A stretch of DNA of 64,000 nt from an uncultured Candidatus Saccharibacteria bacterium (GCA_964596395.1 CAZQSY010000001.1:108091-172090); one strand, 5' to 3'; positions 38,061-52,248 are shown, counted from the first letter of the stretch. Made by a program: numbers and translations. The notes: a model not told the origin generated them from the sequence alone.

Positions 38061-38824
38061 GCGTTTACTATGTTAGAAAATTTTCCGGCATCCAAGCTTG
38101 CCCGGCCTACCAGAAACCCGTCTACTTCTCCGTTGTTCAGGAATTCAGCCACGTTTCTCTCGTCCACCGAGCCGCCATAAATTATTTTCACGCGCTCGGC
38201 CGAGGACAGACCGAATTTATCGGACAAAACTTTCCTGGCGAAAATTACCATCTCTCGGCATTCTTCGGCGGTGGCGGCCGTCGCGCCTTTGCCGATGGCC
38301 CAAATCGGCTCGTAAGCGACAATTATCTTCGAAAGCGCTTCTTTGGGAATTCCGGACAAGCATTCCTCGATTTCTTTCCTGATAAAATTAAGATACTGGT
38401 GTTCTTCATCGCGGGACGGCTCGCCGAAACAAAGCACGGGCGAAAACCCGATTGCGAGAGAAGCTTTCAGTTTTTTGTTCACTGTCTCGTTTGTATCGCC
38501 GCCGCCCGAAGAATGGTCGCGGCGTTCCGAATGGCCGAGAATGACATATTTCGCTCCGGCCTCGCGAAGCTGTAAAGCGGAGACCTGACCCGTAAAAGCG
38601 CCTTCTTCCTTCCAAAAAGCGTCTTGCGCGCCAATGTAAATTTTCTTTGCCGAGCGGCCGGAAAGCTTTTTTATTTTTTCCAAATATAAAACAGGGGGGC
38701 AAATTACGATTTCGGTTTTCTTAAGGCCAGATGCCGCTTTCGCGGTATTCTTGAAAAGAATTTCTGCTTCTTTGGAAGAAGCCGGATTCATCTTCCAGTT
38801 GGCTATGCATATTTTCCTAGACAT
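38039..38824 (-). CDS. tpiA: Triosephosphate isomerase
   Basis: ICIANWKMN, ILGHSERR, AYEPIWAIGKGATA. Confidence 0.9.
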   Translation of the reverse strand: MSRKICIANWKMNPASSKEAEILFKNTAKAASGLKKTEIVICPPVLYLEKIKKLSGRSAKKIYIGAQDAFWKEEGAFTGQVSALQLREAGAKYVILGHSERRDHSSGGGDTNETVNKKLKASLAIGFSPVLCFGEPSRDEEHQYLNFIRKEIEECLSGIPKEALSKIIVAYEPIWAIGKGATAATAEECREMVIFARKVLSDKFGLSSAERVKIIYGGSVDERNVAEFLNNGEVDGFLVGRASLDAGKFSNIVNACEASEN

Positions 38825-38849
38825 GGGGGAAATTGTAGCACAAAAAGAC

Positions 38850-40595
38850 CTATTCGGTTTCCTTCCAGGAAGAAATGCTCCACCCGCCGGACGGACCGTT
38901 CACGAAATTCAAATCCGCCAGACCGGTCTCGTAAGTCACAACCGAATTGTTGTTAAGTTCTATCCATTTCCCGTTCAGCGCTTTGGCGGTGGCGTTGTTC
39001 TCGAGCTCCACTTCCCCATAGGCGGCGTATAGTATCACCGCGCCGCCGTTGTTGTGCAGTTCAATAGCCGAAGTAGAAGGCCAGGTGGAGAGAGCCATAA
39101 TGTAACTGCCGGGCACGCCGGAACCGCTAAAGGTTGTGTTGTTGTCTATCAGTATTTTGCCGTCGGCGATTATCAACCCCTCGGAAGAAGAGTAACTGGC
39201 GGAAAGATTTACGGTTGAATTATTTTTTATGGTTATGGTGCCTGTAACCCACAAAGTGCCCGTTATGGTTAAATGACCTCCGTTATCAACCAGCAAATTG
39301 CCAACCACTTTTTGCGGACCAAGAGACATAGACTCACCATTGGCGATGGTATAGTCGCCCGTGTGCGTCCCGCCCGCTTCGGCTTCGCTTTTCCAATCCA
39401 ATACGTTCTGGTCGGAAATCGGCATCGGCGTCTGCACCGGGTCGGCCAAACTGGTATCGCAGGATTTATTGTTGCCGGTTCCCGTTTGGCAATAATTTGT
39501 ACCGGCAATATTTGAATTATTCACCGTGTGCGCGTAAGCATTGCCTACGCCGCCGGAACCCACCGTTATGCCGTCGATTAACCCGGTCACGCCTCCCAAG
39601 TACAATCTGAAAAACCCATCCAGTCCCGACGGGGAAGTGTTGTTCCAAGTACCCGAATATTGCCCGACCTTGCCGAGCCCGCTCGGATAGCCATTACTGT
39701 TTCCACCTATTGTGTAATATTTTGAGGAATTCGTCGCTCCGTCAAGCACAAGCCAGTAAGTAACACCGGCCGTAAGTTCCGGATTAGAAGAAAAAGGCAA
39801 ACTCACCCAGTTGTAAGTGGCAGAAACCAATGAAGCGGACAAAGAGCGGGAGGTTATGGTAGTCGTACCGGGATTGCCCGACGCGTCATTTACAATACGA
39901 ACCGTCAAGTTCGAAGGAGTGCTGACCTTTTTCAAATACAGTTCAACTTTGTTGATTTGTCCCGTACTGCTCACCTGAAAACTTTGGGCAAAATCCTGGG
40001 AACCGCTTGCGTTCCCAAAAGTCACATCATAAGCGGGGGGCAGTATGTCGTTCGTCTGGTCGGCGGTGAGGGAAGCGGAATTGGCGGACGTGGCACTGCC
40101 GGTAATAGTGCCGGTGCCGGTGATGATACCGTTTGAATAAACGCTTCCGTTAATTACCGAATTGCTTCTCAAGTCGATGCCGCCGGTGCCCGATTGAACT
40201 CCGAAATTAAACGATGCCCCGGTGCCTGTGTTTAGCACCAGCTGAGTTGTCCTCTGCCTGTTCGACACGTCGCCGACAGCCGATACTGTTTTTTGGTTGT
40301 AGCCGGAATCAGCGATAGTGGCCGAACCCGAATTGCCGTTAAGCTCAATAATGTTTGTTCCTCCGATATCCTTTCCGGTCTTTAGGCGAAAATACGCGTC
40401 TTCCACCGCCGACTCGGCCAAGTACAAACTCTGGCTTGATTTAACCTGATTGTCCGCGCTTTTGAATCCGCGAACGGATGGCGAAACGAGACCGGAAGTA
40501 ACAGCCAAAGAAAGAAACAGGAAAAAAACCACTGACACGAGCATCGCCGCTCCGCCCTGCCTGTCTAAATTTTTAATTTCTTTAAGGTAGTACAT
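38850..40595 (-). CDS. Large pilus-associated protein (PilX/PilY1-like minor pilin or tip protein candidate)
   Basis: N-terminal hydrophobic pilin-like segment (GGAAMLVSVVFFLFLSLAV), then 550 aa of Gly/Ser/Thr/Asn-rich beta-type sequence; last gene of the pilus operon. Confidence 0.5.
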   Translation of the reverse strand: MYYLKEIKNLDRQGGAAMLVSVVFFLFLSLAVTSGLVSPSVRGFKSADNQVKSSQSLYLAESAVEDAYFRLKTGKDIGGTNIIELNGNSGSATIADSGYNQKTVSAVGDVSNRQRTTQLVLNTGTGASFNFGVQSGTGGIDLRSNSVINGSVYSNGIITGTGTITGSATSANSASLTADQTNDILPPAYDVTFGNASGSQDFAQSFQVSSTGQINKVELYLKKVSTPSNLTVRIVNDASGNPGTTTITSRSLSASLVSATYNWVSLPFSSNPELTAGVTYWLVLDGATNSSKYYTIGGNSNGYPSGLGKVGQYSGTWNNTSPSGLDGFFRLYLGGVTGLIDGITVGSGGVGNAYAHTVNNSNIAGTNYCQTGTGNNKSCDTSLADPVQTPMPISDQNVLDWKSEAEAGGTHTGDYTIANGESMSLGPQKVVGNLLVDNGGHLTITGTLWVTGTITIKNNSTVNLSASYSSSEGLIIADGKILIDNNTTFSGSGVPGSYIMALSTWPSTSAIELHNNGGAVILYAAYGEVELENNATAKALNGKWIELNNNSVVTYETGLADLNFVNGPSGGWSISSWKETE

Positions 40596-40598
40596 ATC

Positions 40599-41099
40599 TT
40601 AATAATCGCCGCGCAAAACCACCGTATCGTAAAAATCCGCCGTGCGACCTGCCGGGTCACGCTCGGATGAAACACTCACGAAAATTTTTACCGCCGTGCC
40701 CATGTTGGTATTTATTTGTGTGAAAGAAACGGAAGAAATCAGAGTATTGGGCGAATTTAAATTGTCGGTAAATACGTCGTTCTCTAAAAACCTCAGGGCC
40801 GAGCCGGAACGGGAGAATTCAACCGTCTTATTCGCCCCGTCATGGTCGACGGTGTTGATTTTGAGGTTGGTGCCGGTTATGGCGGCAATGCTTTTTGAAT
40901 TTTTTACTTCTCTGGAAATTCTTTCCATTATGACACCCCCCTGCGCGAGGTCCCTGTATATCGCCGCCTCTTTGAAAGACTTGGTCATCACCGCCAAGGA
41001 ATTGATAATGGCTATGGAAAAAATGGCGAAAAGGGAAACGTAAAAAACGGCCTCCAGAAGCGCGTATCCTTGATTATTTTTAAAGCCGTTTAGGTTCAT
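40599..41099 (-). CDS. Prepilin-type (class III signal) minor pilin/pseudopilin
   Basis: QG|YALLEAVFYVSLFAIFSIAI: Gly at -1, Glu at +5, hydrophobic helix. Confidence 0.6.
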   Translation of the reverse strand: MNLNGFKNNQGYALLEAVFYVSLFAIFSIAIINSLAVMTKSFKEAAIYRDLAQGGVIMERISREVKNSKSIAAITGTNLKINTVDHDGANKTVEFSRSGSALRFLENDVFTDNLNSPNTLISSVSFTQINTNMGTAVKIFVSVSSERDPAGRTADFYDTVVLRGDY

Positions 41100-41104
41100 A
41101 AATT

Positions 41105-41584
41105 TCAGCTGAATATGTCCATAACGTAAAATTGCAAATTTTTTGAAATGCTCTGCCCGCCTTCATTCCAGGAAATCGTGACTGTTACCAGTTTGGTGCC
41201 GGGGTCATCATCGCCAGAGTCGGCAATATCGTCGGTGGCGGGGTCGCGATTGACCGGCGAGATGCTTACCGTTCGCGTAAAAATACCCACCGTGCTCGGG
41301 GTGTCGGAGAGCGTCCAAGTGCCCGAGAAAGCCGGGTAGTACGGGGTCTCTTCGGAGAGGGCGGAAATGTTTCCCCAAGAATTATCGCGCAAAATGCGCA
41401 CGGCTTCGGCACCTTCCTCTAAAAGAAAACTCGCCTGGATATCGTGAAGCGCCTGGCGCGACACGGAAACCGATTTTCCCGCCACCGACATGGCGCCCAA
41501 CACCGAAGCGACGATGATTGATACCGCCACCAGTACTTCAACCATCATGAAGCCGCCGATTTTGATTTTTGGAAATTTTTTCAT
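41105..41584 (-). CDS. Prepilin-type minor pilin/pseudopilin
   Basis: GG|FMMVEVLVAVSIIVASVLGA: class III signal with Glu +5. Confidence 0.65.
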   Translation of the reverse strand: MKKFPKIKIGGFMMVEVLVAVSIIVASVLGAMSVAGKSVSVSRQALHDIQASFLLEEGAEAVRILRDNSWGNISALSEETPYYPAFSGTWTLSDTPSTVGIFTRTVSISPVNRDPATDDIADSGDDDPGTKLVTVTISWNEGGQSISKNLQFYVMDIFS

Positions 41585-41589
41585 GCTGA

Positions 41590-42057
41590 CTAATCAATGC
41601 CAACCGAGCCGGTGGCAAAAATGGTAATCGTTTTCTCTGAAGAAGGCGTGGCCACGGTCACGACACCGGTTTTGCTGGGAGCTCCGGACAATTTCTCGAA
41701 ATACAGCTCGCCGCTTGAGGCACTAACCCCCGCTAGGGTGACATCGGTGATATTCGCCGGAGAAATAATATCGATTATTTGATTATCCGAAGCGACTTCA
41801 GAAAAAACTTTGCCTTTGAAAATTATAACCCGGTCGGATTCGAAACGCACACCGTATTCAGACGAATCCAGAGAAGCCAAGCTCTTTGACTGAGCGTCGC
41901 GTAGGGCGGAGGCCGCATCTTCCAGCGCGTTTTTCAAAACCTGGTTTTCTTTTATATCTGAAAACTGGGCCAGCACCACCGAGACCAGAAAAATCAGAAT
42001 AGCCAAAACCACGAGTATCTCCATAAGTGTTATTCCTTTTTGGCGAAAATTTTTCAT
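41590..42057 (-). CDS. Type IV pilin (major pilin candidate)
   Basis: KG|ITLMEILVVLAILIFLVSVVLA: canonical prepilin peptidase site with Glu +5. Confidence 0.75.
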   Translation of the reverse strand: MKNFRQKGITLMEILVVLAILIFLVSVVLAQFSDIKENQVLKNALEDAASALRDAQSKSLASLDSSEYGVRFESDRVIIFKGKVFSEVASDNQIIDIISPANITDVTLAGVSASSGELYFEKLSGAPSKTGVVTVATPSSEKTITIFATGSVGID

Positions 42058-42107
42058 AAGGTTAAACCTTTTTTAAATTCCCAAGGTTTAACCTTGGGAC
42101 AAATGGC

Positions 42108-43325
42108 TCAGTTTATGTTATCCAGCACGGAATACAGGGGCGAAATCATGGATACGGCGAAAAAGCCGACAGCCCCGCCGATAATCACCATTAGCACCGG
42201 CTCGATAATCGTGGAAAGATTTTTGGTTTTGTTTTCTATCTCCGTTTCGTAAAAAGAAGCGATTTGCGAAAGCATTTCCGACAGCTTGCCGGTTTCTTCC
42301 CCGACTTGCGTCATTTCTTCCATCATTATCGGATAAAAATTCGTGTTTTCCTCGAACGCCTTCGAGAAAGGCGAACCCTTCTCTATGTATTCTTTCGCTT
42401 GCTCCAAAATTTTCTTGTAGTAAATATTTTGAACCACGTCTCCTGTTATTTCTATCGCCCGGGTAATAGACACGCCCGAAGACAAAAGCGAAGACATGGT
42501 GCGCGCCGTTCGCGCCGAATTGAGCTCCTTGGTCATGCTGCCGATAATCGGCAGCTTAATCAACGCGAAGTGCGTGTATTTCCGCATAAAGGGTGCCTTG
42601 AGGAGGTATACCGTTCCCGCCGCCGTGCCGATTATCAAAGTAAAAGAAATGAGCAGGTGCTCCGAGAAAAAGTTTCCGAGGGCGATAATAAATTTAGTGG
42701 AAGCAGGAAGGTCCACATTTAACTCCTTGAAGGTGGAGGCCAGCGTCGGCACCACAAAAGCAAACATCAGCACGCCAATCAGCACCATGGCCGAGAGAAT
42801 CACGCTCGGATAGATAAGCGCTCCCTTAACTTTCCTACTCAAAGAATACGCTTTTTCCAAATTCGCGCCCACTTCGGATAACGCGCCCGAGAGATTGCCC
42901 GATTCTTCGCCGGCCTTCGTCATGGAAACGAAAAGATTCGAAAAAACATTCGGAAATTTCGCGAAACCCGAAGAAAGCGTGCCGCCCGCGTCAATTTCTC
43001 CGGCCAGCGCGGTCAAAACATTCACGAAGCCGGGATTTTTCGTCTGCTTTTTCAAAACCGAAAGGGCTCTGGAAAGCGAAAGCCCGGCCTTGAGCATCCC
43101 GCTCAAATTTTTGGTGAAAATAATAAGTTCGCCAAGCCCCACCCTAGAAAGAAAGCGCGCGGTCAAGTTGGATAAATCGAACGGACTCGATTTTCCTTCT
43201 TTTATGGAAATCGGGAGGTCTCCCTTGTCGCGCAATTCGCGAGACAAGGTAAAACGGTCGGCCGCCTCCATCGTGCCTTCAAAAATTTGCCCGTTTTTCA
43301 ATTTTGCTTTGTAGGTAAAAAGCAT
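42108..43325 (-). CDS. pilC: Type IV pilus assembly platform protein PilC (GspF family)
   Basis: Two T2SS_F repeats, three TM segments, about 400 aa. Confidence 0.85.
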   Translation of the reverse strand: MLFTYKAKLKNGQIFEGTMEAADRFTLSRELRDKGDLPISIKEGKSSPFDLSNLTARFLSRVGLGELIIFTKNLSGMLKAGLSLSRALSVLKKQTKNPGFVNVLTALAGEIDAGGTLSSGFAKFPNVFSNLFVSMTKAGEESGNLSGALSEVGANLEKAYSLSRKVKGALIYPSVILSAMVLIGVLMFAFVVPTLASTFKELNVDLPASTKFIIALGNFFSEHLLISFTLIIGTAAGTVYLLKAPFMRKYTHFALIKLPIIGSMTKELNSARTARTMSSLLSSGVSITRAIEITGDVVQNIYYKKILEQAKEYIEKGSPFSKAFEENTNFYPIMMEEMTQVGEETGKLSEMLSQIASFYETEIENKTKNLSTIIEPVLMVIIGGAVGFFAVSMISPLYSVLDNIN

Positions 43326-43326
43326 A

Positions 43327-45078
43327 CTACTCTGAAACGACGCGAAAGACCTCCTCTAAAGAAGTATTGCCCAAAACCGCCTGGAAAACTCCGTCTTCGA
43401 GAATCGTCATCATGCCTTCGGTTTTCGCCTGCTTTTCTATTTCGTCCGAAGAAGCGCCACGCAAAACCATTTCTTTCACGGCCGGAGAAACCTTCAGGAC
43501 TTCGTGAATCCCCACGCGGCTCTGGTATCCGTCGGCCGACTCCTGACTCTTGGCCGGCTTGTAAAAAGGAACTTTGCTCCAGTCCTCCTTCGGCCCGACG
43601 AGCTTTTCGTTTTTTAGAAGCTCAAGCATCCGCTCTAAATTCACAACTTTCCCCAGATTTTTCAATTCATCCGCCGAGAGAAAATATTTTTCCCTGCTCG
43701 GCGTGAGCTTGCGCACCAGACGCTGGGCGATAATCGTCTTTACCGTTGAAACTATCAGAAACGGCAGAGCGCCCATGTCGATGAGACGGGGTATCGCTCC
43801 GGCCGCGGAATTGGTATGTATTGTAGAAAGCACCAGGTGGCCGGTCAGCGCGGCGTTTATCGCGAGACCGGCCGTCTCGCTGTCGCGGATTTCGCCCACC
43901 ATTATTATGTTCGGGTCTTGGCGCAGAAGCGAACGCAAGCCGCCCGCGAAAGTAAGCCCAATTTCGGGTTTTACCTGCACTTGGTTCACTCTGGGCATCT
44001 GATATTCTATCGGGTCTTCGACGGTGGAAATATTAACTTCCGGCCGGTTCAGCATCTCGAGCATGGTGTAAAGGGTAGTGGTCTTTCCGCTGCCGGTAGG
44101 GCCGGTGGCCAGCACCATGCCAATTTTTTGTTTCAGCGAATCGTGAATTCTCTCGAGCGCTTCCCCGTGAAAACCCAAGCCCTCCAGGGTAAAGCCGTGG
44201 GCGTTTTCTTTGAGTATTCTTATGACCGTTTTTTCTCCGTAAAAAATAGGCAGAGTAGAAACGCGAAAGGAAACTTTTTCTCCATTTTGCTCTATTTTGA
44301 ATCGTCCATCCTGCGGCAATCTTTTTTCGTCAAGCTTCAGGTTGGCCAGTACCTTGATGCGGGTGGTTATGCCGGGCGCCGCAGCTTTTTCCAAAACCAT
44401 GGCATCGTGCAGGATTCCATCTATCCTGTACCGCACAATCAAATCGCTCTCCCCGGGCTCTATGTGTATGTCCGAAGCGTTCTGAAGTATGGCGTGAAAA
44501 ATCAGAGAGTCCACGATTTTTACGACCGGCAAGTCCTCGGCCATGGCCTTGAGTTCCGCTTCCGTTTTTTCGGTATCCTTGGCGTCAACTTTCAGAGAAG
44601 CCGCTTCTTTTTTTATGATACTGTCAAAGTCGGCCTGCAAACTTTTTCGATACTGCACTAACGCTGATTTTATCGATAGAGAATCAGTCAGCCGGGGAAG
44701 AATTTTTTCTCCCGCCTTTTTCTTGATGAAATCAATCATCGGCAAATCGTCCACGTCGAGCATCGCCACCTCCAATCCCGATTTTGAATTTTGATAAGCG
44801 ATGATGTTGTGATTTCTGGCAATCGGTTCGGGAATCAAGGAGAGAACCGAAGAATCTATTTTTTTCTTGGTCAGGTCAACGAAGGGAATGCCCAGCACGA
44901 AGGCCTCCATGCGCTTCAAGTCGGTTTCGGACATTTTTTCTTCCGAAATCAAGAGGTCTCCCAGTTTTTGTTTTTTTGCCTCGGCTTTTTTCGCCAGCTC
45001 TTCCAAGTCGCTTTTCGCGATGACTCCCGATTGCAAGACCGCTTTCTTGAATTGCTCTTCGTTGATTTGCATTACCAA
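43327..45078 (-). CDS. pilB: Type IV pilus assembly ATPase PilB (GspE family)
   Basis: N-terminal GSPII_E_N domain, Walker A GPTGSGKTTTLY, Asp box, Walker B, His box. Confidence 0.9.
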   Translation of the reverse strand: MVMQINEEQFKKAVLQSGVIAKSDLEELAKKAEAKKQKLGDLLISEEKMSETDLKRMEAFVLGIPFVDLTKKKIDSSVLSLIPEPIARNHNIIAYQNSKSGLEVAMLDVDDLPMIDFIKKKAGEKILPRLTDSLSIKSALVQYRKSLQADFDSIIKKEAASLKVDAKDTEKTEAELKAMAEDLPVVKIVDSLIFHAILQNASDIHIEPGESDLIVRYRIDGILHDAMVLEKAAAPGITTRIKVLANLKLDEKRLPQDGRFKIEQNGEKVSFRVSTLPIFYGEKTVIRILKENAHGFTLEGLGFHGEALERIHDSLKQKIGMVLATGPTGSGKTTTLYTMLEMLNRPEVNISTVEDPIEYQMPRVNQVQVKPEIGLTFAGGLRSLLRQDPNIIMVGEIRDSETAGLAINAALTGHLVLSTIHTNSAAGAIPRLIDMGALPFLIVSTVKTIIAQRLVRKLTPSREKYFLSADELKNLGKVVNLERMLELLKNEKLVGPKEDWSKVPFYKPAKSQESADGYQSRVGIHEVLKVSPAVKEMVLRGASSDEIEKQAKTEGMMTILEDGVFQAVLGNTSLEEVFRVVSE

Positions 45079-45090
45079 TCATTTTATAAC

Positions 45091-45165
45091 AGAAAACTAA
45101 AAAAGCATATCTCTAGAAATTCGTACCCTAGAAAAGATATGCTTTTTAGTTTTCTGTTGAGTTAG
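45091..45165 (-). other. Long near-perfect hairpin (about 28-bp arms) between the giant surface protein gene and pilB
   Basis: aacagaaaactaaaaaagcatatctctag ... ctagaaaagatatgctttttagttttctgtt; arms complementary except for a 1-nt indel and 2 mismatches; loop aaattcgtacc. Confidence 0.55.
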
Positions 45166-48100
45166 TTTTCTATAAACACCGGTTTCTTGCCGCCGGTAGA
45201 TACGTACACCCACAATTCGTCGGGGGCCTGGCCGCCTGGGCCGGTGCAGGTGATTGAATATTTCGTGCTGCGCGAAGGCCCCGGGCTGACTAAAACACTT
45301 CCCTCAGTATCGCCGCCGGTCGTAATCGCGCCACCTTCGTAAATAATATTAGAGCAAGACGTGGTGTTGGTAGATGTCCATTCCAGAGTAAACGGCTCGC
45401 CAGAAGATATCGGGTTCTTTGAATCCGCCGAAAGCGAAAGGTTAGCGTTCGGAGAAGCCACTGTATCTGTGCAGATGCTCCCGTTCCAGAAAGTTGCAGA
45501 CGCGCAGTCAGCGAAAGCGGTAGCGCGAGCGAGCTCAATCCCGTCATTGTACAAGAAAAAAGTCCTCGGGCTTGAATCGTATGGAACCGGCAAACCTACG
45601 TTGTTCCCGAAATTTCCGGCCATAACAGTAGTTTTTGCTTCTGGATAGTTTGAGGTTATTGCCGAGTCCCCTGCCGGGTTTATGGTGGTCCAATCAAAGT
45701 GAACATCACAGCTACTGTTGCCCGAAAGTATCTCGCAAGGGCTGTCTAGGGGGGTCAAACTTCCAGTCGGAGCTTCGCCGCAAGCCGGCGCCTGGCAGGA
45801 TTGCGTGGGACTTCCTACACAATCAGCCCCGCCGTTGGCTGGAGCAGGGTTGGTGCATGTGCGTGTCTGCACGCCGGACTCTCCGCACATTGTCGCGCTA
45901 CAGGCGCCCCACTGCGACCATCCGCCGTCCACCGGGTCGCTGGTCACGGTCACATCCACCCATGCGCCGCAGTTATTGTTTTCGTTCGACTCGGTCACGA
46001 CGCCGGTAAAGGTCGGGTCATTGTCGGCGCAGGCGCGAACCGAATATGTGCCTGGAGCGATAAAGGTGTACGAGGGAGAGAAAGTTGTGTTATTTCCTCC
46101 GGCGGAAAGCGCTGGCATCAGGGTTGCGTTCAGCGATTCTATCGTGCCGAAACCGCCGGTACTTGAAGCCACCTGGAAAAAGTTCGGGAACGAAGTCGGG
46201 GTCGCGGCAGTGCCGGAGTTTGAGATGGTAGCCGAGAAAGTTACAGCTTCATTCGCGTTGACTTCTGTCGGCGAAGAACTGGAAGCAGTCAGTTCGGGTA
46301 AGGACGCGCCCGGGGTGGCAAAAGTGGCATCCGGAGAGTAGCCGGTGAGTCCCGCCGAGTTCGTGGCGTAACCTCGGTAGTAGTATACTGTTCCACCCGA
46401 CAAGCCGGTCCTTACGTGGGAATAGGCGACATTTACAGAAATACCGCCTTCGGCGCTGCAGTTTGAAGAAGGATTCGGCGCTGTTCCGAGACACGTGCCG
46501 CGGGCGGTGATAGTCGCCGGGATTCCGGCTGAAGTTACAGTCGCTCCGAGTGTCGCCTTATAGGTAGAACCGTCGAGAGAGATGTCCGACGAAGTGGGGC
46601 TCGCGACGGTCGGCGGGGTATTCCCCGAAGCGGCGAAGGTCGCGCTGAATGTCTGGTTTGAAGTTATGTTTGTGAAGGTGTAAGAAGTCGCGCTGGTAGT
46701 AGTCGGAGTACCGTTTACTATGTGCGAGGCAACTACATATCCGTTGCTTGGAGTGAGAGTAAGAGTAGTTGAATTCGTACCGTAAATCACCGAAGTGGTC
46801 CCCGCCGGAGAGATAGTTCCGTTTAACGCCTGAGTAACGGCGATAGTCGGTTTTGCTCTGCACTGCCCGCTTACCCAATCGCTGCCGGAAGCACACGTCG
46901 CAGTGGCGCTGCTTTGGTCGAGCAACACACCGTTGTTGTACAGATAAAATGTTTTTGTCCCGTCAGATATTTGATAATTAAGGGGCGATGTGTTGTTTCT
47001 AGAATCCGCCACCACTATTTGTGGCGGAGTAGTCACTTGAGAATAACTTGCAGGATTGTTTACGCTCCAGGAAATACTCGAGTTACAGGCGCTGGAACCT
47101 ATCGGAATAGTACAATCGGTAGAGGAGACATTGCCCGACATTTGCCCGGCTATCGCCGAGAAAGAAGCAGTAACCGTACAAGCCGAAGTTACCGGACCCG
47201 TGGTGTAAATACTTCCCGCAAGTGAGCCGCCGCAGCCGGTAACAGTATTTATCTCATAACCGCTGTTCGGAGAAATGGTGAAAGAACCAGTGGAATTGTA
47301 GTTCACATTCCTGGAAGACGGGGTGATGGTCCCGCCGACCCCTCCACTAACTGAAGTGCCGACCGTGTATGAATTTAGAGAGAACGAAGCAGATACGTTG
47401 CACCCCGAAGTAATCGCACCAGTCGTATAAGTCGTACCCGAAAGCGAGCCGTTGCAACCGGAAGCGGAAGCGGTGTAACCGGCAGTCGGGGTAACAGTAA
47501 ATGTTGTGGTAAGGCCATGATTCACTGTCCTAGTTGAAGGAGTAATTGAACCGCCGGCCCCACTACCACTTGAGGTTACCGTGTACGAATTTTGCGAGAA
47601 AGTCGCGCTAACTGTACAGTTCGCGGTAATAGAGTTTGTCGTGTAAATATTTCCGGCAAGAGATCCGCCGCAGGTGCCGCCGACCGAAGCGGTGTAGCCG
47701 GTATTCGGAGTAACGGTGAAGGAAGTGTTGTCGCCCGATGCTACGGTTTGAGCAGTATTTGGAGATATGGAACCACCAGCGCCGGCGCTGGGAGTAACTG
47801 TATAGGTATTAGAAGCCACGGTAATATTCTTCCAGGGACCGCAGTTGTTGCTCTCGTTTGATTCAGTGATGGTGCCAGCGTTTGACGAACTGGTCTTGTC
47901 AGCACAAACGCGGATGGAATACGTGCCAGCCGGGCTGAAAGTAATTGATGGGGAGGTAGCCGTATCCATTCCCCCGGCGGTAACCGCAGGCATGGTACCG
48001 CTTGGCGTTCTGTCGGCGGGTGTCCCGCACCCGCCTCCCGTATTGCATGTCTGGAAAAAATAACTGAACGAAGCGCCGGTCGAAGCATTGCCACCGTTGG

Positions 48101-51100
48101 AAATAACAGCGGTGTAAGTCCTGGCGACACCGGTGGTGGCGGCTGAAGGGCTCGCAAGGCCAGCAGTCAAGTCGGGTAAGGGTTTGTCTTCGGAACAAGA
48201 GGCGCTGCTCCCGCCGTTTGAACCCGCGCAGGTCCATGTCCAGGCGGTTGCTCCGTTCACGTTGCTGGTACTGGTACCCGAAGAACAATTGTAGTGAGCG
48301 GGGGCGCAGGAGCCATTGACCGGAGACACGACGGATGAGAATGAAGCTGTTACGGTACAGTTTGAATTTATTGAACCGGTCGTATAAGTGTAGTTCGGAG
48401 CAGTACCCGAAAGCGAGCCGCTGCAGCCAGAGGCGGAAGCGGTGTAGCCGGAGTTTGAAGTCACGGTGAAGGTAGTGGTAGTACCCGCGTTAACCACTAC
48501 CGAACTCGGGGTTATATTCCCATTCGGAGAACCGTTATCTGTGGCTGTCACGGTATAAGTCACAGCAGTTGTCCCACAAACACTTCCGTTCCAAGTGGTA
48601 CCAGCAGAACAAGAAGTCGTGGCCGTAGCAGAATCCAACTCTTGCCCGTTGTTGTATAGATAGAAAGTTCTTGAGCCGTAGTGTACCGAATATGTCGCCG
48701 AACCAGAGTTTCCCGAGCCCACAGTTATATTTGTCGGAGTGGTTACCGCCGAAGTTGAAACCGGATTGGTCGTACTCCAGCTTATGCTTGAACTACAACT
48801 ACTTTGTCCGGATGGAATCGTGCAATTCGAAGCGCTGATTGTTCCAGACATACCGCCGGCCGAAGCCGCAAACGTTGCCGTCACGCTTTTAGCCGAGTTC
48901 ATGGTGAAACTGCAAGTTCCGGTGCCGGTACACGCGCCCGACCAGCCAGAGAATGTATAACCGGAAGAAGGAGCAGCGGTGAGAGAGACGCTAGTACCGC
49001 TGCTTACGTTTGCAGAACAAGTAGTGCCACAATTTATGCCGTTGCCGGTTACGGTGCCGCTGCCGGATTTAGTTACAGAAAGAATGTATGTTGTCGGACT
49101 AAACGTCGCCGTCACGCTTTTGTTTGCGTTCATAGTGAAACTGCAAGTTCCGGTGCCGGTGCAGGCACCCGACCAGCCAGAGAATGTATAACCAGAAGAA
49201 GGAGTAGCGGCGAGAGAAACGTTTGCTCCAGTTATGATATTAACCGTACAGGGGTAAGAACTGCAACCAGACAGAATGTTGCCAGCAGAACCAGACGCGG
49301 TACCGCTCAGAGTGCCGCTGCCGCTTTTGTTTACCGTAAGCGCGCTAGTTTGAACTGAATTGAAAGTAAACGTCACCGTGCAGTTTGTGGTTATGGCGTT
49401 CGTCGTGTAAGTGGTACCGTTTAATGTTCCCCCACAAGTGCCGCCGACCGAAGCGGTGTAGCCCGAGTTGGGGATAACATTAAAGGAAATAATCCCGCCG
49501 TGCGAAACATAATAATTATCCCCCGAAGAAGACCAAGTAGAAGTCTGTTGAGATACACTCCCATTCGCGCCAGCGGTAACCGTAACACTATGGAAAAAGA
49601 AAGCTATAAGCGAGCAATTTTGGGTGATGGGCTCGGTTGTGTAAATAACTGAACCGCTCCCCAGAACTTCGACCTGGCTACCACACCCTGAAACCGCACC
49701 TAGATAGCCGGAATTCGCCGTTACGGTGAAAGTAGTAGTCTGACCGGATTGCACAGTTCTGAATGAGGGAGTGATAGACCCACCGGAACCATCTACCGAG
49801 GCAGACACAGTATAGCTAGGTGTTGTTTGGCTAAACGTAGCTGAAACGGTACAATTCGCGGTTATCACATTTGTAGTGTAAGTAGTGCCACTTAAAGTTC
49901 CCCCGCAAGTACCACCCACCGAAGATATATATCCAGAATTCGGTGACACGGTGAAAGACATGGTATACCCGTAGGTTATTGATTGGGAAGTGCTCGGAGA
50001 AATTGAACCGCCGGAGCCAGCGCTCGGCGTCACCGTCAAGACCGCTTTGTTGAATGTCGCAGTAACACTCTTGTTTGAATTCATAACGAAACTGCATACA
50101 GAACTCGCTCCAGTGCAAGCGCCCGACCAGCCCGAGAAAGTAGAACCAGTTGAGGGTGTGGCAACCAAATCAATGAGATCATTTGGATAAAAACTCGCGG
50201 AACATGTGGTCCCACAGCTGATACCGCTCGGAGAAGAGGTAATTGTTCCTGAACCAGTACCAGCTTTACTTACGGTCAGAGTGTACGGGGCTAAGCTGAA
50301 CGTCGCCGTCACGCTTTTGTTTGAATTCATGGTGAAATTGCAGGTTCCTGTGCCAGTGCAGGCGCCCGACCAATTCGAGAATACATAGCCCGCAGACGGG
50401 CTCGCGGTGAGGGACACACTCGCACCGCTTGAAACATTAACTGTGCATGGGTATGAAGAGCAGCCGGAGAGAATGTTGCCGGCAGTGCCGGAGGCAGTGC
50501 CGGATATAGTGCCACTGCCGGTCTTGCTGACAGTGAGAGCGTAGTTCTGATAAGAAGTTGTAAAAGAAACATCAGAACCATAGCTTGTGCCCGCTCCGTT
50601 TGTGGCATACGCGCGCACATGATACGTAGTACCCTGAGAAAGACCGGTGATATAACTTATCCATGGACTGCTCGCGCTACTTGTTCCATCGGCAGTTTTG
50701 CCTAGATAAGAAGAAACCGTAGGATTTGAAGAAAGCCCCCACACTATTCCGCTTGCTGAAATGGGTGAGCCATTCACGGATGTGATTTGTCCCCCACTCT
50801 GTGCGGAAGTTGGAGATATGTTTGAAACGTTGCTGGTCGTAACTGTCGGCGCCTCGGCCGGGGTCACAAATGAGGAAGTGGAAGAGTACCCCGTGAGATA
50901 GGCCGAGTTGGTGGCATATCCCTTGAAATAATAAGTTGTGCCCGGATTTAGATTTGTCAAAGAAAGAGAAAAAGGGTTAGTGGAAGAACCAGACAAGCAG
51001 GTGTTTAAACTAGAAGAAGAAGTTCCGTAACAAAAACCTCTGCTGTTTATAGTAGAAGGACTACCGAAATTTGATATGGTGTCAGACAAAGTTACACTTC

Positions 51101-52007
51101 GCGAAGCCAGATTGGAATAAGAAGGGTTGGCGAGTGTGGGAGCGGTGTTGTTCTGCGCGTAGCTTATGCTCACCGTGCAGTTGCCGGTAACCGCACCTGT
51201 GGTATATGTATAGGAAGAACTTTGCGATGAAGTAGGGCTCCCGCTGCATCCCGAAGCCGAAGCGGTATAGCCTGATGCCGGAGCTATGACGAAAGAAGTG
51301 TTAGAACCATGCGTAACATTTTTAGAAACAGAGTTTGAGGTGGAACCGTCTATTGTGCCGTTTGCAGAGTTGTCTGTTGCCGTAACAACGTAAGAGTTCA
51401 GGGCAAACGTCGCCGTCACGCTTTTGGCCGAGTTCATGGTGAAACTGCATGTTCCGGTGCCGGTGCAAGCGCCCGACCAACCAGAGAATGTCGACCCGAA
51501 ACTCGGAGAAGCACTAAGGGTAACGCTGGTACCGCTAGAATAACTTGCGCTGCAGGTGGCCCCGCAGGAGATTCCCGCCGGAGTCGAAGTAATCGTACCT
51601 GCGCCCGTGCCTGCTTTGCCCACCGTTAAAGCATAGCTTGATGCCACAGTTACGGTCACCGACTTAGAGACATCGTACATTTCACCCTGAGCATTTACAC
51701 AATAAAGGGTGTAAGTAGCGGTGGACGAAGGAGAAACACTCTGACTTCCGATGATATGTGTTGTCGCGTCGGGGTAAATGATGCCGGAGAAGCCGCTGCC
51801 TCCGGTGCTGCTTTTATAACACTCCACGGCATCATAAACAATCCAACTTAAAGTGGAAGAGCCGCCGGGCTGTATAGTAGTCGGGGAAGCGGTAAAATCT
51901 ATGCTCGTCGCCGGTCCGACAGCTGAAACAATGTTTTGTTTTAAAGCCGCAAAAAACAAAAACGCGGCTAGAACCGAAGCGAGGGTGAGAAAAATTTTCT
52001 TGAACAT
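45162..52007 (-). CDS. Giant secreted surface protein (2281 aa): InlB-B-repeat (GW-SGAC-TG-C-FTMN-N-SVTATF) modules, Ig-like repeats, one thrombospondin type-1-like module
   Basis: Signal peptide MFKKIFLTLASVLAAFLFFAAL; at least 8 copies of the G(Y/S)(T/V)FSGWSGACTG(T/A)GTCxFTMNSNKSVTATF motif; DGGWSQWGACSATMCGESGVQTRTCTNPAPANGGADC at about 45775-45930; Ser/Thr/Gly-rich; first gene of the pilB-pilC-pilin operon; extended -10 TGTATAAT on the minus strand at about 52077-52090. Confidence 0.85.
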   Translation of the reverse strand: MFKKIFLTLASVLAAFLFFAALKQNIVSAVGPATSIDFTASPTTIQPGGSSTLSWIVYDAVECYKSSTGGSGFSGIIYPDATTHIIGSQSVSPSSTATYTLYCVNAQGEMYDVSKSVTVTVASSYALTVGKAGTGAGTITSTPAGISCGATCSASYSSGTSVTLSASPSFGSTFSGWSGACTGTGTCSFTMNSAKSVTATFALNSYVVTATDNSANGTIDGSTSNSVSKNVTHGSNTSFVIAPASGYTASASGCSGSPTSSQSSSYTYTTGAVTGNCTVSISYAQNNTAPTLANPSYSNLASRSVTLSDTISNFGSPSTINSRGFCYGTSSSSLNTCLSGSSTNPFSLSLTNLNPGTTYYFKGYATNSAYLTGYSSTSSFVTPAEAPTVTTSNVSNISPTSAQSGGQITSVNGSPISASGIVWGLSSNPTVSSYLGKTADGTSSASSPWISYITGLSQGTTYHVRAYATNGAGTSYGSDVSFTTSYQNYALTVSKTGSGTISGTASGTAGNILSGCSSYPCTVNVSSGASVSLTASPSAGYVFSNWSGACTGTGTCNFTMNSNKSVTATFSLAPYTLTVSKAGTGSGTITSSPSGISCGTTCSASFYPNDLIDLVATPSTGSTFSGWSGACTGASSVCSFVMNSNKSVTATFNKAVLTVTPSAGSGGSISPSTSQSITYGYTMSFTVSPNSGYISSVGGTCGGTLSGTTYTTNVITANCTVSATFSQTTPSYTVSASVDGSGGSITPSFRTVQSGQTTTFTVTANSGYLGAVSGCGSQVEVLGSGSVIYTTEPITQNCSLIAFFFHSVTVTAGANGSVSQQTSTWSSSGDNYYVSHGGIISFNVIPNSGYTASVGGTCGGTLNGTTYTTNAITTNCTVTFTFNSVQTSALTVNKSGSGTLSGTASGSAGNILSGCSSYPCTVNIITGANVSLAATPSSGYTFSGWSGACTGTGTCSFTMNANKSVTATFSPTTYILSVTKSGSGTVTGNGINCGTTCSANVSSGTSVSLTAAPSSGYTFSGWSGACTGTGTCSFTMNSAKSVTATFAASAGGMSGTISASNCTIPSGQSSCSSSISWSTTNPVSTSAVTTPTNITVGSGNSGSATYSVHYGSRTFYLYNNGQELDSATATTSCSAGTTWNGSVCGTTAVTYTVTATDNGSPNGNITPSSVVVNAGTTTTFTVTSNSGYTASASGCSGSLSGTAPNYTYTTGSINSNCTVTASFSSVVSPVNGSCAPAHYNCSSGTSTSNVNGATAWTWTCAGSNGGSSASCSEDKPLPDLTAGLASPSAATTGVARTYTAVISNGGNASTGASFSYFFQTCNTGGGCGTPADRTPSGTMPAVTAGGMDTATSPSITFSPAGTYSIRVCADKTSSSNAGTITESNESNNCGPWKNITVASNTYTVTPSAGAGGSISPNTAQTVASGDNTSFTVTPNTGYTASVGGTCGGSLAGNIYTTNSITANCTVSATFSQNSYTVTSSGSGAGGSITPSTRTVNHGLTTTFTVTPTAGYTASASGCNGSLSGTTYTTGAITSGCNVSASFSLNSYTVGTSVSGGVGGTITPSSRNVNYNSTGSFTISPNSGYEINTVTGCGGSLAGSIYTTGPVTSACTVTASFSAIAGQMSGNVSSTDCTIPIGSSACNSSISWSVNNPASYSQVTTPPQIVVADSRNNTSPLNYQISDGTKTFYLYNNGVLLDQSSATATCASGSDWVSGQCRAKPTIAVTQALNGTISPAGTTSVIYGTNSTTLTLTPSNGYVVASHIVNGTPTTTSATSYTFTNITSNQTFSATFAASGNTPPTVASPTSSDISLDGSTYKATLGATVTSAGIPATITARGTCLGTAPNPSSNCSAEGGISVNVAYSHVRTGLSGGTVYYYRGYATNSAGLTGYSPDATFATPGASLPELTASSSSPTEVNANEAVTFSATISNSGTAATPTSFPNFFQVASSTGGFGTIESLNATLMPALSAGGNNTTFSPSYTFIAPGTYSVRACADNDPTFTGVVTESNENNNCGAWVDVTVTSDPVDGGWSQWGACSATMCGESGVQTRTCTNPAPANGGADCVGSPTQSCQAPACGEAPTGSLTPLDSPCEILSGNSSCDVHFDWTTINPAGDSAITSNYPEAKTTVMAGNFGNNVGLPVPYDSSPRTFFLYNDGIELARATAFADCASATFWNGSICTDTVASPNANLSLSADSKNPISSGEPFTLEWTSTNTTSCSNIIYEGGAITTGGDTEGSVLVSPGPSRSTKYSITCTGPGGQAPDELWVYVSTGGKKPVFIEN

Positions 52008-52162
52008 ATTTATATAATATTAGCTTTTAAACACGTAAAAATGGGATTTTATTTTTTTGAACACACGACAATCCTAATATTATACAATATAAAGAAACCG
52101 ATACCGTGTATCTTTTTAGAAAAACATGTTAATAACTTTAATTAATTAGAACTACCCTAAAT

Positions 52163-52191
52163 TTGCACCTAAAGACGCGCTGTGGTATCAT
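52163..52191 (+). promoter_or_regulatory. Sigma70-like promoter for nusA (TTGCAC-17 nt-TATCAT, TG-extended)
   Basis: ttgcac 52163-52168, tatcat 52186-52191 preceded by tgtgg. Confidence 0.45.
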
Positions 52192-52248
52192 GCGGGAATA
52201 CAAGTCCTGTCTCAAGCGGGGCTTTTTTATTTAAATAAACAAACAATT

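What the first reader, a model, noticed from the sequence alone, without database searches (positions are those of the whole stretch)
45162..52007. 2281-aa secreted InlB-B-repeat / TSP1-containing giant protein heading a minimal type IV pilus operon
The gene is immediately upstream of, and co-oriented with, pilB-pilC-three prepilins-large pilus protein, and is separated from pilB only by an 84-bp gap containing a long hairpin. It carries a signal peptide, at least 8 copies of the GWSGACTGTGTCxFTMNxNKSVTATF InlB-B-type module, many Ig-like S/T/G-rich repeats, and near the C-terminus a thrombospondin type-1 signature (WSQWGACSATMCGESGVQTRTCTNPAPANGGADC), which is rare in bacteria. This arrangement suggests a pilus-associated adhesin or host-contact protein. 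The operon lacks pilM/N/O/Q/T within the window.
Basis: partly seen in the sequence, partly recalled or inferred. Interest (0 to 1): 0.65.

Follow-up and report, generated by a model that had tools for sequence, protein, structure and literature searches.

The report
Giant CPR adhesin beside pilus operon
This is a real 2281-residue secreted, adhesin-like surface protein of an ultrasmall (CPR/Paceibacteria) bacterium, carrying a genuine animal-type thrombospondin repeat; it is consistently encoded next to the type IV pilus genes in its close relatives, but as its own transcription unit, and its short conserved C-terminal tail has no known function.

Summary
ORF 45162-52007 (-) is intact and was assembled identically in two public contigs. 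It encodes a signal peptide plus about 26 beta-sandwich or Cys-rich modules: 14 InlB-B/Flg_new_2-like (only 5 with the WSGAC signature, not 8 or more), 3 fn3-like, 2 CARDB, 3 copies of a domain with no Pfam model ('modX'), one real TSP1 repeat and a terminal Ig-like domain.

The host is a Paceibacteria (Ca. Nomurabacteria-like) bacterium. 'Heading the pilus operon' is not supported. The hairpin is an intrinsic terminator, canonical in relatives. pilB has its own extended -10 box just before its ATG, also where the upstream slot is empty. The pilB-pilC-minor-pilin operon exists without any upstream gene in 20 of 49 bounded relatives.

Linkage is nevertheless real in the clade. Proteins sharing the C-terminal cassette (CARDB-TSP1-modX-Ig) and an extreme C-terminal tail, [KR]KKPx[FY]xE[NQD]-COOH, lie directly 5' of pilB in most sampled cases. 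The N-terminal stalks differ freely between relatives.

Best reading: a hypervariable fibrillar adhesin that works alongside the pilus, with the tail as the likely docking signal. I rate it a new variant of a known kind, of moderate interest.

The parts
45162..52007 (-). Giant ORF, 2281 aa plus stop: a secreted multi-module surface protein
   Evidence: The identical protein is on two public contigs.
52014..52019 (-). TATTAT -10-like box 6 nt upstream of the giant gene's ATG. No Shine-Dalgarno sequence, so this looks like the start of a leaderless unit.
   Evidence: The same geometry is seen at 17 of 52 window genes, against 4% at random positions.
51921..52007 (-). Sec-type signal peptide, aa 1-29 (MFKK / hydrophobic core / VSA|VGP)
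   Evidence: Read from the sequence. It is the only hydrophobic segment in the protein. Orthologues have equivalent AxA-type signal peptides. Not run through a predictor.
51642..51920 (-). N-terminal domain, aa 30-122; Ig-like by sequence pattern only
   Evidence: Conserved at 38% identity in the nearest relative L081. No Pfam hit. No significant BLASTP similarity to the C-terminal Ig domain.
48869..51638 (-). Stalk block 1, aa 124-1047: InlB-B/Flg_new_2-like modules (type A at 124-202, 488-571, 574-653, 887-970, 973-1047; type B at 206-284, 657-726, 732-805, 806-883) and two fn3-like modules (287-382, 384-484)
   Evidence: Pfam PF18998 E 3e-76, TIGR02543, own HMM domain map, self-similarity.
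48573..48845 (-). modX copy 1, aa 1055-1145: four-Cys Ig-like domain with an FYLYNN motif and no Pfam model
48336..48557 (-). InlB-B type B module, aa 1151-1224
48159..48326 (-). Cys-rich module, aa 1228-1283 (C..HY.C...W.W.C.G.NGG...C)
   Evidence: It recurs in P0029, P0052, P0096 and L009. No Pfam hit.
47808..48158 (-). CARDB 1, aa 1284-1400
46314..47804 (-). Stalk block 2, aa 1402-1898: three InlB-B type B modules (1402-1617), modX copy 2 (1625-1717), one InlB-B type B (1720-1792), fn3-like 3 (1796-1898)
45936..46280 (-). CARDB 2, aa 1910-2024; start of the conserved C-terminal cassette
   Evidence: The cassette aa 1765-2281 is 48% identical in L081/L129.
45780..45923 (-). Thrombospondin type-1 repeat, aa 2029-2076 (WSQW, six Cys, TRTC)
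   Evidence: Pfam 22.7 bits against 21.6; PDB phmmer 3e-12; AF2 pLDDT 87 with only TSR folds returned.
45468..45755 (-). modX copy 3, aa 2085-2180
   Evidence: pLDDT above 90 with an Ig-like fold.
45195..45449 (-). C-terminal Ig-like domain, aa 2187-2271
45165..45194 (-). Extreme C-terminal tail GGKKPVFIEN-COOH, an instance of the conserved motif [KR]KKP-x-[FY]-x-E-[NQD]
   Evidence: pLDDT about 51, so it is a free peptide in the model. It is the only ORF in the window with this ending.
45090..45156 (-). Long hairpin, interpreted as an intrinsic (bidirectional-type) terminator. The core at 45099-45147 is A5 / stem / U6.
   Evidence: Canonical terminators sit at the same position in L001, L003, L004, L007, L008, L009, L002, L081, L083, L084 and L085. 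No Rfam family matches.
45083..45091 (-). TGTTATAAA, an extended -10-like box for pilB, 10 nt before the ATG at 45072
   Evidence: Relatives have TGnTATAAT/TATACT 6-9 nt before the pilB ATG.
38850..45072 (-). Adjacent, separately promoted pilus operon: pilB (43327-45072), pilC (42108-43325), three minor prepilins (41590-42057, 41105-41584, 40599-41099) and a 581-aa pilin-like protein with a choice-of-anchor R domain (38850-40595). Intergenic gaps are 1, 50, 5, 5 and 3 nt.
   Evidence: This backbone is conserved in 80 Paceibacteria loci.

Best explanation
The gene encodes a Sec-exported, disulfide-rich (72 Cys) fibrillar adhesin-like surface protein of a Paceibacteria (Ca. Nomurabacteria-like, CPR) bacterium.

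Shown:
- It has a cleavable-type signal peptide and then about 26 small modules. The first part is a variable stalk of InlB-B/Flg_new_2-like and fn3-like beta-sandwiches. The last part is a conserved C-terminal cassette, CARDB-TSP1-modX-Ig, ending in the tail KKPVFIEN-COOH.
- It is its own leaderless-type transcription unit. It sits in a plastic slot between nusA and the conserved pilB-pilC-minor-pilin operon, ends in an intrinsic terminator, and pilB has its own promoter.
- In the clade with PilB at least about 74% identical, a signal-peptide protein with this tail, and usually a TSP1 repeat, almost always occupies the position directly 5' of pilB. Its N-terminal domain content is reshuffled, from 388 to 2296 aa.

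Inferred:
- If extended, the mature protein would project about 100 nm from the cell. It binds a partner or host cell surface, or a polymer, through its CARDB/TSP1 modules.
- It works alongside the pilus (pili reach and retract, the adhesin holds) rather than being a pilus subunit.
- There is no TM segment, no LPXTG motif and no other anchor, and the tail is the only element shared regardless of the preceding domain. The tail is therefore the most likely retention or docking signal.
For: - Domain content.
- TSP1 by score, by homology to solved TSRs and by fold.
- Ig-like folds of modX and the C-terminal domain at pLDDT 85-98.
- No second hydrophobic segment.
- Terminator and own promoter.
- Slot plasticity (20 of 49 empty; unrelated domain sets in L003, L004, L005, L007, L040).
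- Orthologue with conserved ends and a variable middle.
- Linkage of cassette/tail proteins to pilB. In the 80 genome loci, 10 of 216 upstream co-oriented proteins carry the tail against 0 of 952 others (Fisher p 4e-8, not phylogenetically independent).
- The TSP1 core motif is present in 8 of the 10 immediately pilB-adjacent metagenome loci and in none of the 5 loci with no pilB downstream.
- Flg_new-type domains are recognised stalk domains of fibrillar adhesins (PMC9210967).
- Giant surface proteins are a known CPR theme (PMC8080830).
Against: - No binding partner, localisation or expression data exist.
- No recognised anchor was found, so surface retention is an inference.
- CARDB and TSP1 are adhesive by analogy only.
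- Tail-bearing relatives also occur next to unrelated genes (P0029, L143/L171, L192, L111, L212). More distant CARDB/TSP1 proteins are unlinked to pilB. The pilB linkage could therefore be inherited synteny in one clade.
- The simple terminator scan did not flag the window's own AT-rich hairpin, and read-through into pilB cannot be excluded.
Confidence: 0.55

Rival explanations
1. Physically pilus-coupled adhesin or cargo. After Sec export the protein is captured by the type IV pilus machinery through its C-terminal tail. It is either displayed on the minor-pilin tip complex (pilin1-3 plus the 581-aa protein), as PilY1/PilC is, or pushed out and released by the pseudopilus as in T2SS or TcpF-type secretion.
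For: - Cassette/tail proteins lie immediately 5' of pilB in most sampled cases, even where the downstream minor-pilin set is inverted or replaced (L007, L083, L092).
- The tail is a free, conserved linear peptide independent of the preceding domain.
- The protein lacks any other anchor.
- TSP1 repeats are grafted directly onto a type IV prepilin in another bacterium (P0066, N_methyl + 2 TSP_1).
- From general knowledge: PilY1 and TcpF are non-pilin proteins with Sec signals that depend on T4P machinery.
Against: - It is a separate transcription unit.
- There is no pilin signal and no PilY1/PilC domain.
- About 30% of tail proteins are not near pil genes.
- 58 of 147 modX proteins chosen without regard to context carry the tail, which suggests a general signal rather than a pilus-specific one.
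- No interaction test was possible.
Confidence: 0.2
2. Envelope or matrix protein with only historical synteny. It is an S-layer-like, cell-wall-associated or released matrix protein whose position next to pilB is a neutral leftover of one insertion into a recombination-prone nusA|pilB gap.
For: - The gap is empty in 20 of 49 relatives. Elsewhere it holds many unrelated genes for secreted proteins.
- All linked cases fall in one PilB clade (64-84% identity).
- The units are transcriptionally insulated.
- The folds are generic Ig-like; an S-layer protein (EA1) appears among the distant matches.
Against: - The position is retained while the rest of the protein is reshuffled and the flanking pilin genes are rearranged.
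- There are no SLH or other S-layer or wall-binding domains.
- The conserved CARDB-TSP1 cassette argues for a ligand-binding role.
Confidence: 0.15
3. One reading: the giant gene is the first cistron of the pilus operon, and the hairpin is an attenuator or processing site within one transcript.
For: - The two genes are co-oriented, 89 nt apart, with no room for a full -35/-10 promoter outside the hairpin.
- The window's hairpin is AT-rich and was not called by the terminator scan.
Against: - Homologous positions in relatives hold textbook terminators directly followed by TGnTATAAT/TATACT and, 6-9 nt later, the pilB ATG.
- The same -10 geometry precedes pilB where nusA is the neighbour, and it marks unit starts throughout this window.
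- The pil operon is intact without any upstream gene in 20 loci.
Confidence: 0.1

Closest known systems
Fibrillar adhesins (stalk repeats plus an adhesive domain plus an anchor; Monzon & Bateman, PMC8286594, PMC9210967)
   Same: Long secreted protein built of tandem beta-sandwich stalk domains (Flg_new-type, fn3-like, Ig-like) with putative binding modules. It evolves fast by domain shuffling.
   Different: It has no LPXTG, TM, T1SS or autotransporter anchor. Instead it has a 9-10-residue C-terminal tail of unknown function. The putative adhesive modules (CARDB, TSP1) sit in the C-terminal part. The host is a CPR bacterium.
Giant surface proteins of CPR bacteria (e.g. Vampirococcus lugosii, PMC8080830)
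   Same: Very large proteins with adhesion-type domains, predicted to lie on the cell surface, in a reduced genome that also encodes type IV pili and ComEC. They are proposed to have a host-attachment role.
   Different: Those were inferred to be membrane-localised and were not reported as positionally linked to pilB. No TSP1 repeat or C-terminal tail motif was described for them.
Listeria InlB B-repeat / Pfam PF18998 Flg_new_2 and TIGR02543 repeats
   Same: 14 modules match this family (Pfam E 3e-76).
   Different: There is no LRR internalin domain and no GW or LPXTG anchoring. Only the repeat is shared, so this is not an internalin.
Eukaryotic thrombospondin type-1 repeats (thrombospondin-1, properdin, UNC5, ADAMTS; apicomplexan TRAP-type adhesins)
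   Same: Six-Cys pattern, W-x-x-W and R layers, 35-48% identity to solved TSRs, and the same predicted fold. It is used in an extracellular adhesive context.
   Different: It is a single repeat in a bacterial protein. The eukaryotic glycosylation context (O-fucose, C-mannose) is not expected here. The ligand is unknown, and so is the direction of any inter-domain transfer.
Non-pilin type IV pilus partners: PilY1/PilC tip adhesins and the T4P-secreted TcpF (own knowledge)
   Same: Sec-signal, non-pilin proteins encoded beside pilus genes that mediate adhesion or colonisation.
   Different: No PilY1/PilC beta-propeller domain is present. The gene lies 5' of pilB as a separate unit rather than inside the minor-pilin operon. 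Dependence on the machinery is untested.
Modular type IV pilins (S. sanguinis PilB, PMC8179133) and the N_methyl + 2xTSP_1 protein P0066
   Same: Adhesive modules (including TSP1 in P0066) associated with type IV pili.
   Different: The giant protein has an ordinary Sec signal peptide, not a class III prepilin signal, so it cannot be polymerised as a pilin.
Pam pili of CPR bacteria (bioRxiv 10.64898/2026.03.03.709456)
   Same: CPR-specific extracellular proteins with Ig-like folds that are used for host contact.
   Different: Pam pilins are small two-domain subunits assembled by donor-strand exchange. They are reported mainly in Saccharimonadia and Microgenomatia. No homology or similar operon is seen here.

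Membership tests
Pfam PF18998 Flg_new_2 (divergent InlB B-repeat) | Profile score above the gathering threshold, in repeated copies | tested here: met
   251.9 bits against 23.6, E 3e-76, 11 stretches. TIGR02543 35.5 bits against 20.95. 14 modules by own HMMs.
Thrombospondin type-1 repeat (PF00090) | Profile score above the gathering threshold | tested here: met
   22.7 bits against 21.6, E 1.2e-4, aa 2029-2076. This is a marginal pass on its own.
Thrombospondin type-1 repeat (PF00090) | Sequence hallmarks: WxxW, six Cys, Arg layer; homology to solved TSRs | tested here: met
   WSQWGACS..MCG..TRTC..GGADC..SC..AC. UNC5B 2.9e-12 and TSP-1 TSR2-3 4.6e-12. Invariant C, W, R and G columns in a 50-sequence alignment.
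Thrombospondin type-1 repeat (PF00090) | TSR fold | tested here: met
   AF2 pLDDT 87.1. All top-50 Foldseek PDB matches are TSR domains, with TM-score (normalised to the query) up to 0.65. This is a predicted structure, not a solved one.
CARDB (PF07705) | Profile score above the gathering threshold | tested here: met
   50 bits against 22.7, two copies.
Fibrillar adhesin | Tandem stalk domains | tested here: met
   About 20 tandem beta-sandwich modules. Flg_new is listed as a stalk domain (PMC9210967).
Fibrillar adhesin | A demonstrated or recognised adhesive domain | tested here: inconclusive
   CARDB and TSP1 are adhesion-associated by annotation or analogy only.
Fibrillar adhesin | A recognised cell-surface anchor (LPXTG, TM, SLH, GW, etc.) | tested here: not met
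   No hydrophobic segment beyond aa 4-23. No anchor domain in Pfam or NCBIfam. The protein ends in KKPVFIEN.
Type IV pilus operon member (co-transcribed cistron) | No terminator or promoter between it and pilB; conserved together with the operon | tested here: not met
   A terminator plus pilB's own -10 box. The operon occurs without any upstream gene in 20 of 49 bounded loci.
Type IV pilin / pseudopilin | Class III signal peptide (G-1, E+5, N_methyl motif) | tested here: not met
   The N-terminus MFKKIFLTLASVLAAFLFFAAL..VSA|V has no G/FTLxE and no PF07963 hit.
PilY1/PilC tip adhesin | C-terminal PilY1/PilC beta-propeller domain | tested here: not met
   No such Pfam or NCBIfam hit at E up to 1. 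The C-terminal 266 aa model as TSR plus two Ig-like domains.
T4P/T2SS-dependent secreted substrate (TcpF-like) | Export depends on the pilus machinery | not testable with these tools
   Needs genetics or fractionation. Only positional linkage is available.
Known C-terminal sorting signals (LPXTG, PEP-CTERM, GlyGly-CTERM, PGF-CTERM, T9SS CTD) | Signature motif followed by a TM helix and a basic tail, or a CTD profile | tested here: not met
   No TM after the motif; the protein ends 1 residue after the conserved Glu. No NCBIfam sorting-domain hit.

The most novel reading that the evidence does not exclude
The extreme C-terminal tail [KR]KKP-x-[FY]-x-E-[NQD]-COOH is a previously undescribed sorting or docking signal of Paceibacteria. 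It would couple a hypervariable family of TSP1/CARDB-bearing giant adhesins to the type IV pilus apparatus, either by display on the minor-pilin tip or by T2SS-like, pilus-driven release. That would explain why these genes are kept directly 5' of pilB while everything else about them is reshuffled.
Probability: 0.15. Interest if true: 0.75.

Novelty: new variant of a known kind. Interest (0 to 1): 0.45.

Why it matters
CPR/Patescibacteria make up a large share of bacterial diversity. They are thought to live attached to other cells, yet outside a few cultured Saccharibacteria the molecules that make contact are unknown.

This locus gives a concrete, testable candidate set for Paceibacteria:
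- a conserved C-terminal cassette (CARDB-TSP1-modX-Ig) on a freely varying stalk
- a fixed position beside the pilus assembly genes
- a short C-terminal tail, shared by dozens of large secreted proteins, that fits no known sorting signal

It also shows that true thrombospondin type-1 repeats are a recurrent module of these bacterial proteins. That bears on the origin and spread of a domain usually treated as eukaryotic. If the tail proves to be a docking signal, it would define a new way for wall-bearing ultrasmall bacteria to display or release adhesins.

Tried and rejected
- Assembly artefact or fused ORF: rejected. The identical protein is on two contigs, and the DNA repeats are only 62-91% identical.
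- Hairpin as a known RNA element: no Rfam match at E up to 1 over 38000-53000.
- Hairpin as an attenuator inside one operon: rejected in favour of a terminator after comparison with relatives.
- modX and the C-terminal domain as a specific known fold: Foldseek returned only generic Ig, fn3 and titin-like matches. Pfam has no model for modX.
- N-terminal and C-terminal Ig-like domains as homologues: BLASTP was not significant.
- Tail conservation as a DNA-level element of the pilB promoter: rejected. The tail also occurs on proteins far from pilB, and a terminator lies between it and the -10 box.
- Tail strictly linked to pilB: rejected. P0029, L143/L171, L192, L111 and L212 are not adjacent.
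- More distant CARDB/TSP1 proteins (P0046, P0044, P0077) are not pilB-linked.
- Literature searches for bacterial or CPR TSP1, for pilus-linked giant proteins and for such a C-terminal signal found nothing specific. The library is incomplete.
- Not attempted: a chimeric AF2 run of the tail with the minor pilins. The tool's input restriction and the lack of paired alignments would have made it uninformative.
Full report
**Observation.** The window holds an uninterrupted ORF on the minus strand at 45162-52007 (ATG start, 2281 codons). The identical protein sequence is present on two independent public contigs, a 25-kb Logan assembly and a 200-kb NCBI contig, with the same neighbours. Its internal DNA repeats are only 62-91% alike. 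It is therefore not a repeat-collapse or fusion artefact. The protein is 46% Ser+Thr+Gly and has 72 Cys. Its only hydrophobic segment is aa 4-23. The N-terminus (MFKK, hydrophobic core, VSA|VGP) reads as an ordinary Sec/SPase I signal peptide, as do the N-termini of its relatives. No predictor was available.

**Domain content.** Pfam gives Flg_new_2 (divergent InlB B-repeat) at E 3e-76 in 11 stretches, two CARDB domains (E 4e-13), and TSP_1 at 22.7 bits against a gathering score of 21.6. fn3 is below threshold. NCBIfam adds TIGR02543. Iterated HMMs built from the protein itself resolve the following:
- 14 InlB-B-like modules: five 'type A' with the W[ST]GAC...KSVTATF signature and nine 'type B' with SGY...CGG...NCTV.A.F
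- three fn3-like modules
- three copies of a four-Cys module I call modX
- one Cys-rich module
- two CARDB domains, one TSP1 repeat and a C-terminal Ig-like domain

**The TSP1 repeat is real.**
- It has WxxW, six Cys and the Arg layer.
- phmmer against PDB sequences gives UNC5B 2.9e-12 and thrombospondin-1 TSR2-3 4.6e-12, then properdin, ADAMTS13 and C6-C9.
- An AF2 model of aa 2022-2082 with a 50-sequence alignment reaches pLDDT 87, and every one of the top 50 Foldseek PDB matches is a TSR domain.
- In the 5.8-billion-protein search, the segment matches metazoan TSR proteins at 55-65% identity. It also matches many metagenomic bacterial proteins that combine PF00090 with CARDB, cohesin/dockerin, a sortase domain or even a prepilin N_methyl motif (P0066).

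TSP1 is unusual in bacteria, but it is not unique to this gene.

**C-terminal structure.** An AF2 model of aa 2016-2281 (pLDDT 84.8) shows TSR, then modX (pLDDT above 90), then an Ig-like domain, then a low-confidence tail. Foldseek returns only generic Ig, fn3 and titin-type matches for the two beta-sandwiches. modX has no Pfam model. It is nevertheless found in at least 1343 50%-identity cluster representatives, at up to 11 copies per protein, in proteins up to 3566 aa.

**Organism and neighbourhood.** PilB of the window retrieves 80 loci, nearly all labelled as CPR/Patescibacteria MAGs, chiefly Paceibacterota/Parcubacteria. The closest are Ca. Nomurabacteria MAGs at 74-78% identity.
- Downstream of the giant gene lie pilB (T2SSE + MshEN), pilC (T2SSF), three prepilins with G-1/E+5, and a 581-aa protein. 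That protein has a pilin-like N-terminus lacking E+5 and a choice-of-anchor R domain.
- The gaps within this cluster are 1, 50, 5, 5 and 3 nt.
- The rest of the window is housekeeping. Pfam scans of 20 other ORFs found no further pil genes.
- Across the 80 loci the backbone nusA(-) | pilB pilC pilin1-3 581-aa tpiA pgk recJ is conserved.

**Operon question.** The 67-nt hairpin at 45090-45156 is highly stable (dG -34.5, z -8.1). Its core is A5, a stem and U6. At the same position, the upstream gene of L001, L003, L004, L007, L008, L009, L002, L081, L083, L084 and L085 is followed by a textbook intrinsic terminator (A-tract, GC-rich stem, U-tract). That terminator abuts TGnTATAAT/TATACT, and the pilB ATG follows 6-9 nt later.

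A -10-like box within 4-14 nt of the pilB ATG is present in 44 of 80 loci, including those where nusA is the direct neighbour. Others have one slightly further upstream. In the window itself, 17 of 52 genes have TGnTAnAAT ending 6-7 nt before the ATG, against 4% at random positions. These genes include the giant gene (TATTAT-N6-ATG), tpiA and, less canonically, pilB (TGTTATAAA-N10-ATG).

This organism evidently uses leaderless-type units. The giant gene and the pil operon are two such units separated by a terminator. No Rfam family matches the region. The simple terminator scan did not list the window's AT-rich hairpin, so some read-through cannot be excluded.

**Linkage.** The nusA|pilB interval is plastic. 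Of 49 loci where nusA bounds it, 20 contain no ORF of 100 aa or more. Others contain assorted co-oriented genes, many with signal peptides. In the closest relatives (PilB at least 74% identical), 8 of 9 have a large signal-peptide protein immediately 5' of pilB, 390-2296 aa long. Their Pfam content is largely unrelated:
- L003: Beta_helix, CARDB, Flg_new_2 and TSP_1
- L004: PKD and CARDB
- L040: Big_7
- L007: none

The nearest relative (L081/L129, PilB 84%) has an orthologue with a conserved N-terminal domain (38% identity) and C-terminal 520 aa (48%). Its middle differs, and the assembly is broken by gaps.

What these proteins share is an extreme C-terminal tail, [KR]KKP-x-[FY]-x-E-[NQD]-COOH (GGKKPVFIEN in the window).
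- In the 80 loci, 10 of 216 upstream co-oriented proteins have it, against 0 of 952 others (Fisher p 4e-8; these cases are related, not independent).
- Of seven tail-bearing homologues of the C-terminal 382 aa that were looked up, P0002, P0003, P0030, P0037 and P0043 are directly 5' of pilB. P0084 is in the nusA slot with a truncated downstream gene. P0029 lies next to infA.
- More distant CARDB/TSP1 proteins are not linked: P0046, with a variant ...IFQEF ending, P0044 and P0077.
- A motif-only scan of metagenome contigs for KKPxFxEN-stop returned 120 matches. Sixteen of these are real C-termini of such proteins. pilB follows within 25-204 nt in 10 of them and at 1.1 kb in one. Five lie beside unrelated genes.
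- The TSP1 core motif is present in 8 of the 10 immediately adjacent loci and in none of the 5 with no pilB downstream.
- Among 147 modX proteins chosen without regard to their ends, 58 finish with P-x-[FYILW]-x-E-x.
- The tail follows different last domains: Ig-like here, the Cys module in L009 and several others.
- It is modelled as a free peptide (pLDDT about 51).

**Interpretation.** The architecture is that of a fibrillar adhesin: a signal peptide, a long variable stalk of small beta-sandwiches and a conserved ligand-type cassette. Flg_new-type domains are recognised stalk domains (PMC9210967). Giant surface proteins are a known feature of CPR genomes and are thought to mediate host attachment (PMC8080830). 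Type IV pili are required for host association in cultured Saccharibacteria (title of PMC9894109; PMC10633639).

What differs here:
1. No known anchor is present.
2. A conserved C-terminal tail fits no described sorting signal.
3. A true TSR is a recurrent module.
4. The position directly 5' of pilB persists in one clade despite wholesale reshuffling.

I therefore favour a hypervariable adhesin that acts alongside the pilus and is docked through its tail (0.55). Three rivals follow:
- Direct pilus coupling, as tip display or pilus-driven release (0.2).
- An envelope or matrix protein with merely inherited synteny (0.15).

All functional steps beyond sequence, fold and synteny are inference.

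**Novelty and score.** As a protein it is a new, unnamed member of a known kind. The tail, the modX family, the recurrent TSP1 and the conserved pilB adjacency make it a new variant worth follow-up. Nothing here overturns current views, and the mechanism is untested. Interest is 0.45. The most novel reading not excluded is that the tail is a new docking signal tying these adhesins to the pilus machinery (probability about 0.15).

Noticed in passing
Whole window; e.g. 52014-52019 (giant), 45083-45091 (pilB), upstream of 38824 (tpiA), upstream of 17517 (DUF11 protein): 17 of 52 genes have an extended -10 box (TGnTAnAAT) ending 6-7 nt before the ATG, with no Shine-Dalgarno sequence. At random positions the rate is 4%. 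This suggests widespread leaderless transcription units in this CPR genome.
   Followed up: partly
Window 45165-45194 (-); L003-L009, L093-L212 subset, P0002-P0267 subset: A conserved extreme C-terminal tail, [KR]KKP-x-[FY]-x-E-[NQD]-COOH, occurs on many large secreted Paceibacteria proteins. It is independent of the preceding domain. 58 of 147 modX proteins have it. A variant ending ...[IV]P.FQEF also exists. It matches no known sorting signal.
   Followed up: partly
Window aa 1055-1145, 1625-1717, 2085-2180 of the giant (48573-48845, 46857-47135, 45468-45755): 'modX' is a roughly 95-aa four-Cys Ig-like domain with an FYLYNN motif and no Pfam model. It is found in at least 1343 cluster representatives, at up to 11 copies per protein.
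   Followed up: yes
Window 48159-48326 (-), aa 1228-1283: A small Cys-rich module (C..HY.C...W.W.C.G.NGG...C) recurs in other CPR proteins (P0029, P0052, P0096, L009). It has no Pfam hit.
   Followed up: no
Window 18818-22384 (-): The isoleucyl-tRNA synthetase (1188 aa) carries an inserted histidine-phosphatase (His_Phos_1) domain at aa 531-693.
   Followed up: no
P0066: A 474-aa protein from another bacterium combines a type IV prepilin N_methyl signal with two TSP1 repeats. TSP1 is thus grafted directly onto a pilin.
   Followed up: no
L036, L061, L066, L074, L076, L078 (gene immediately 5' of pilB): In more distant Paceibacteria, a CheY-like receiver protein (MK.IL.IEDE...) occupies the position directly upstream of pilB, judged by its N-terminal sequence only.
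   Followed up: no
Window 15586-17517 (-): A second candidate surface protein: 643 aa with a DUF11 repeat hit and a canonical TGCTACAAT-N6-ATG start.
   Followed up: no
Window 42081-42097 (-): A short perfect hairpin (CCAAGGTTAAACCTTGG) lies in the 50-nt gap between pilC and the first prepilin gene. It may be an internal attenuator or processing site of the pil operon.
   Followed up: no
L081 (4381-9473): The orthologous giant gene of the nearest relative is split over three frames and contains 200 N. Such repeat-rich genes are probably often broken or under-called in MAGs.
   Followed up: partly
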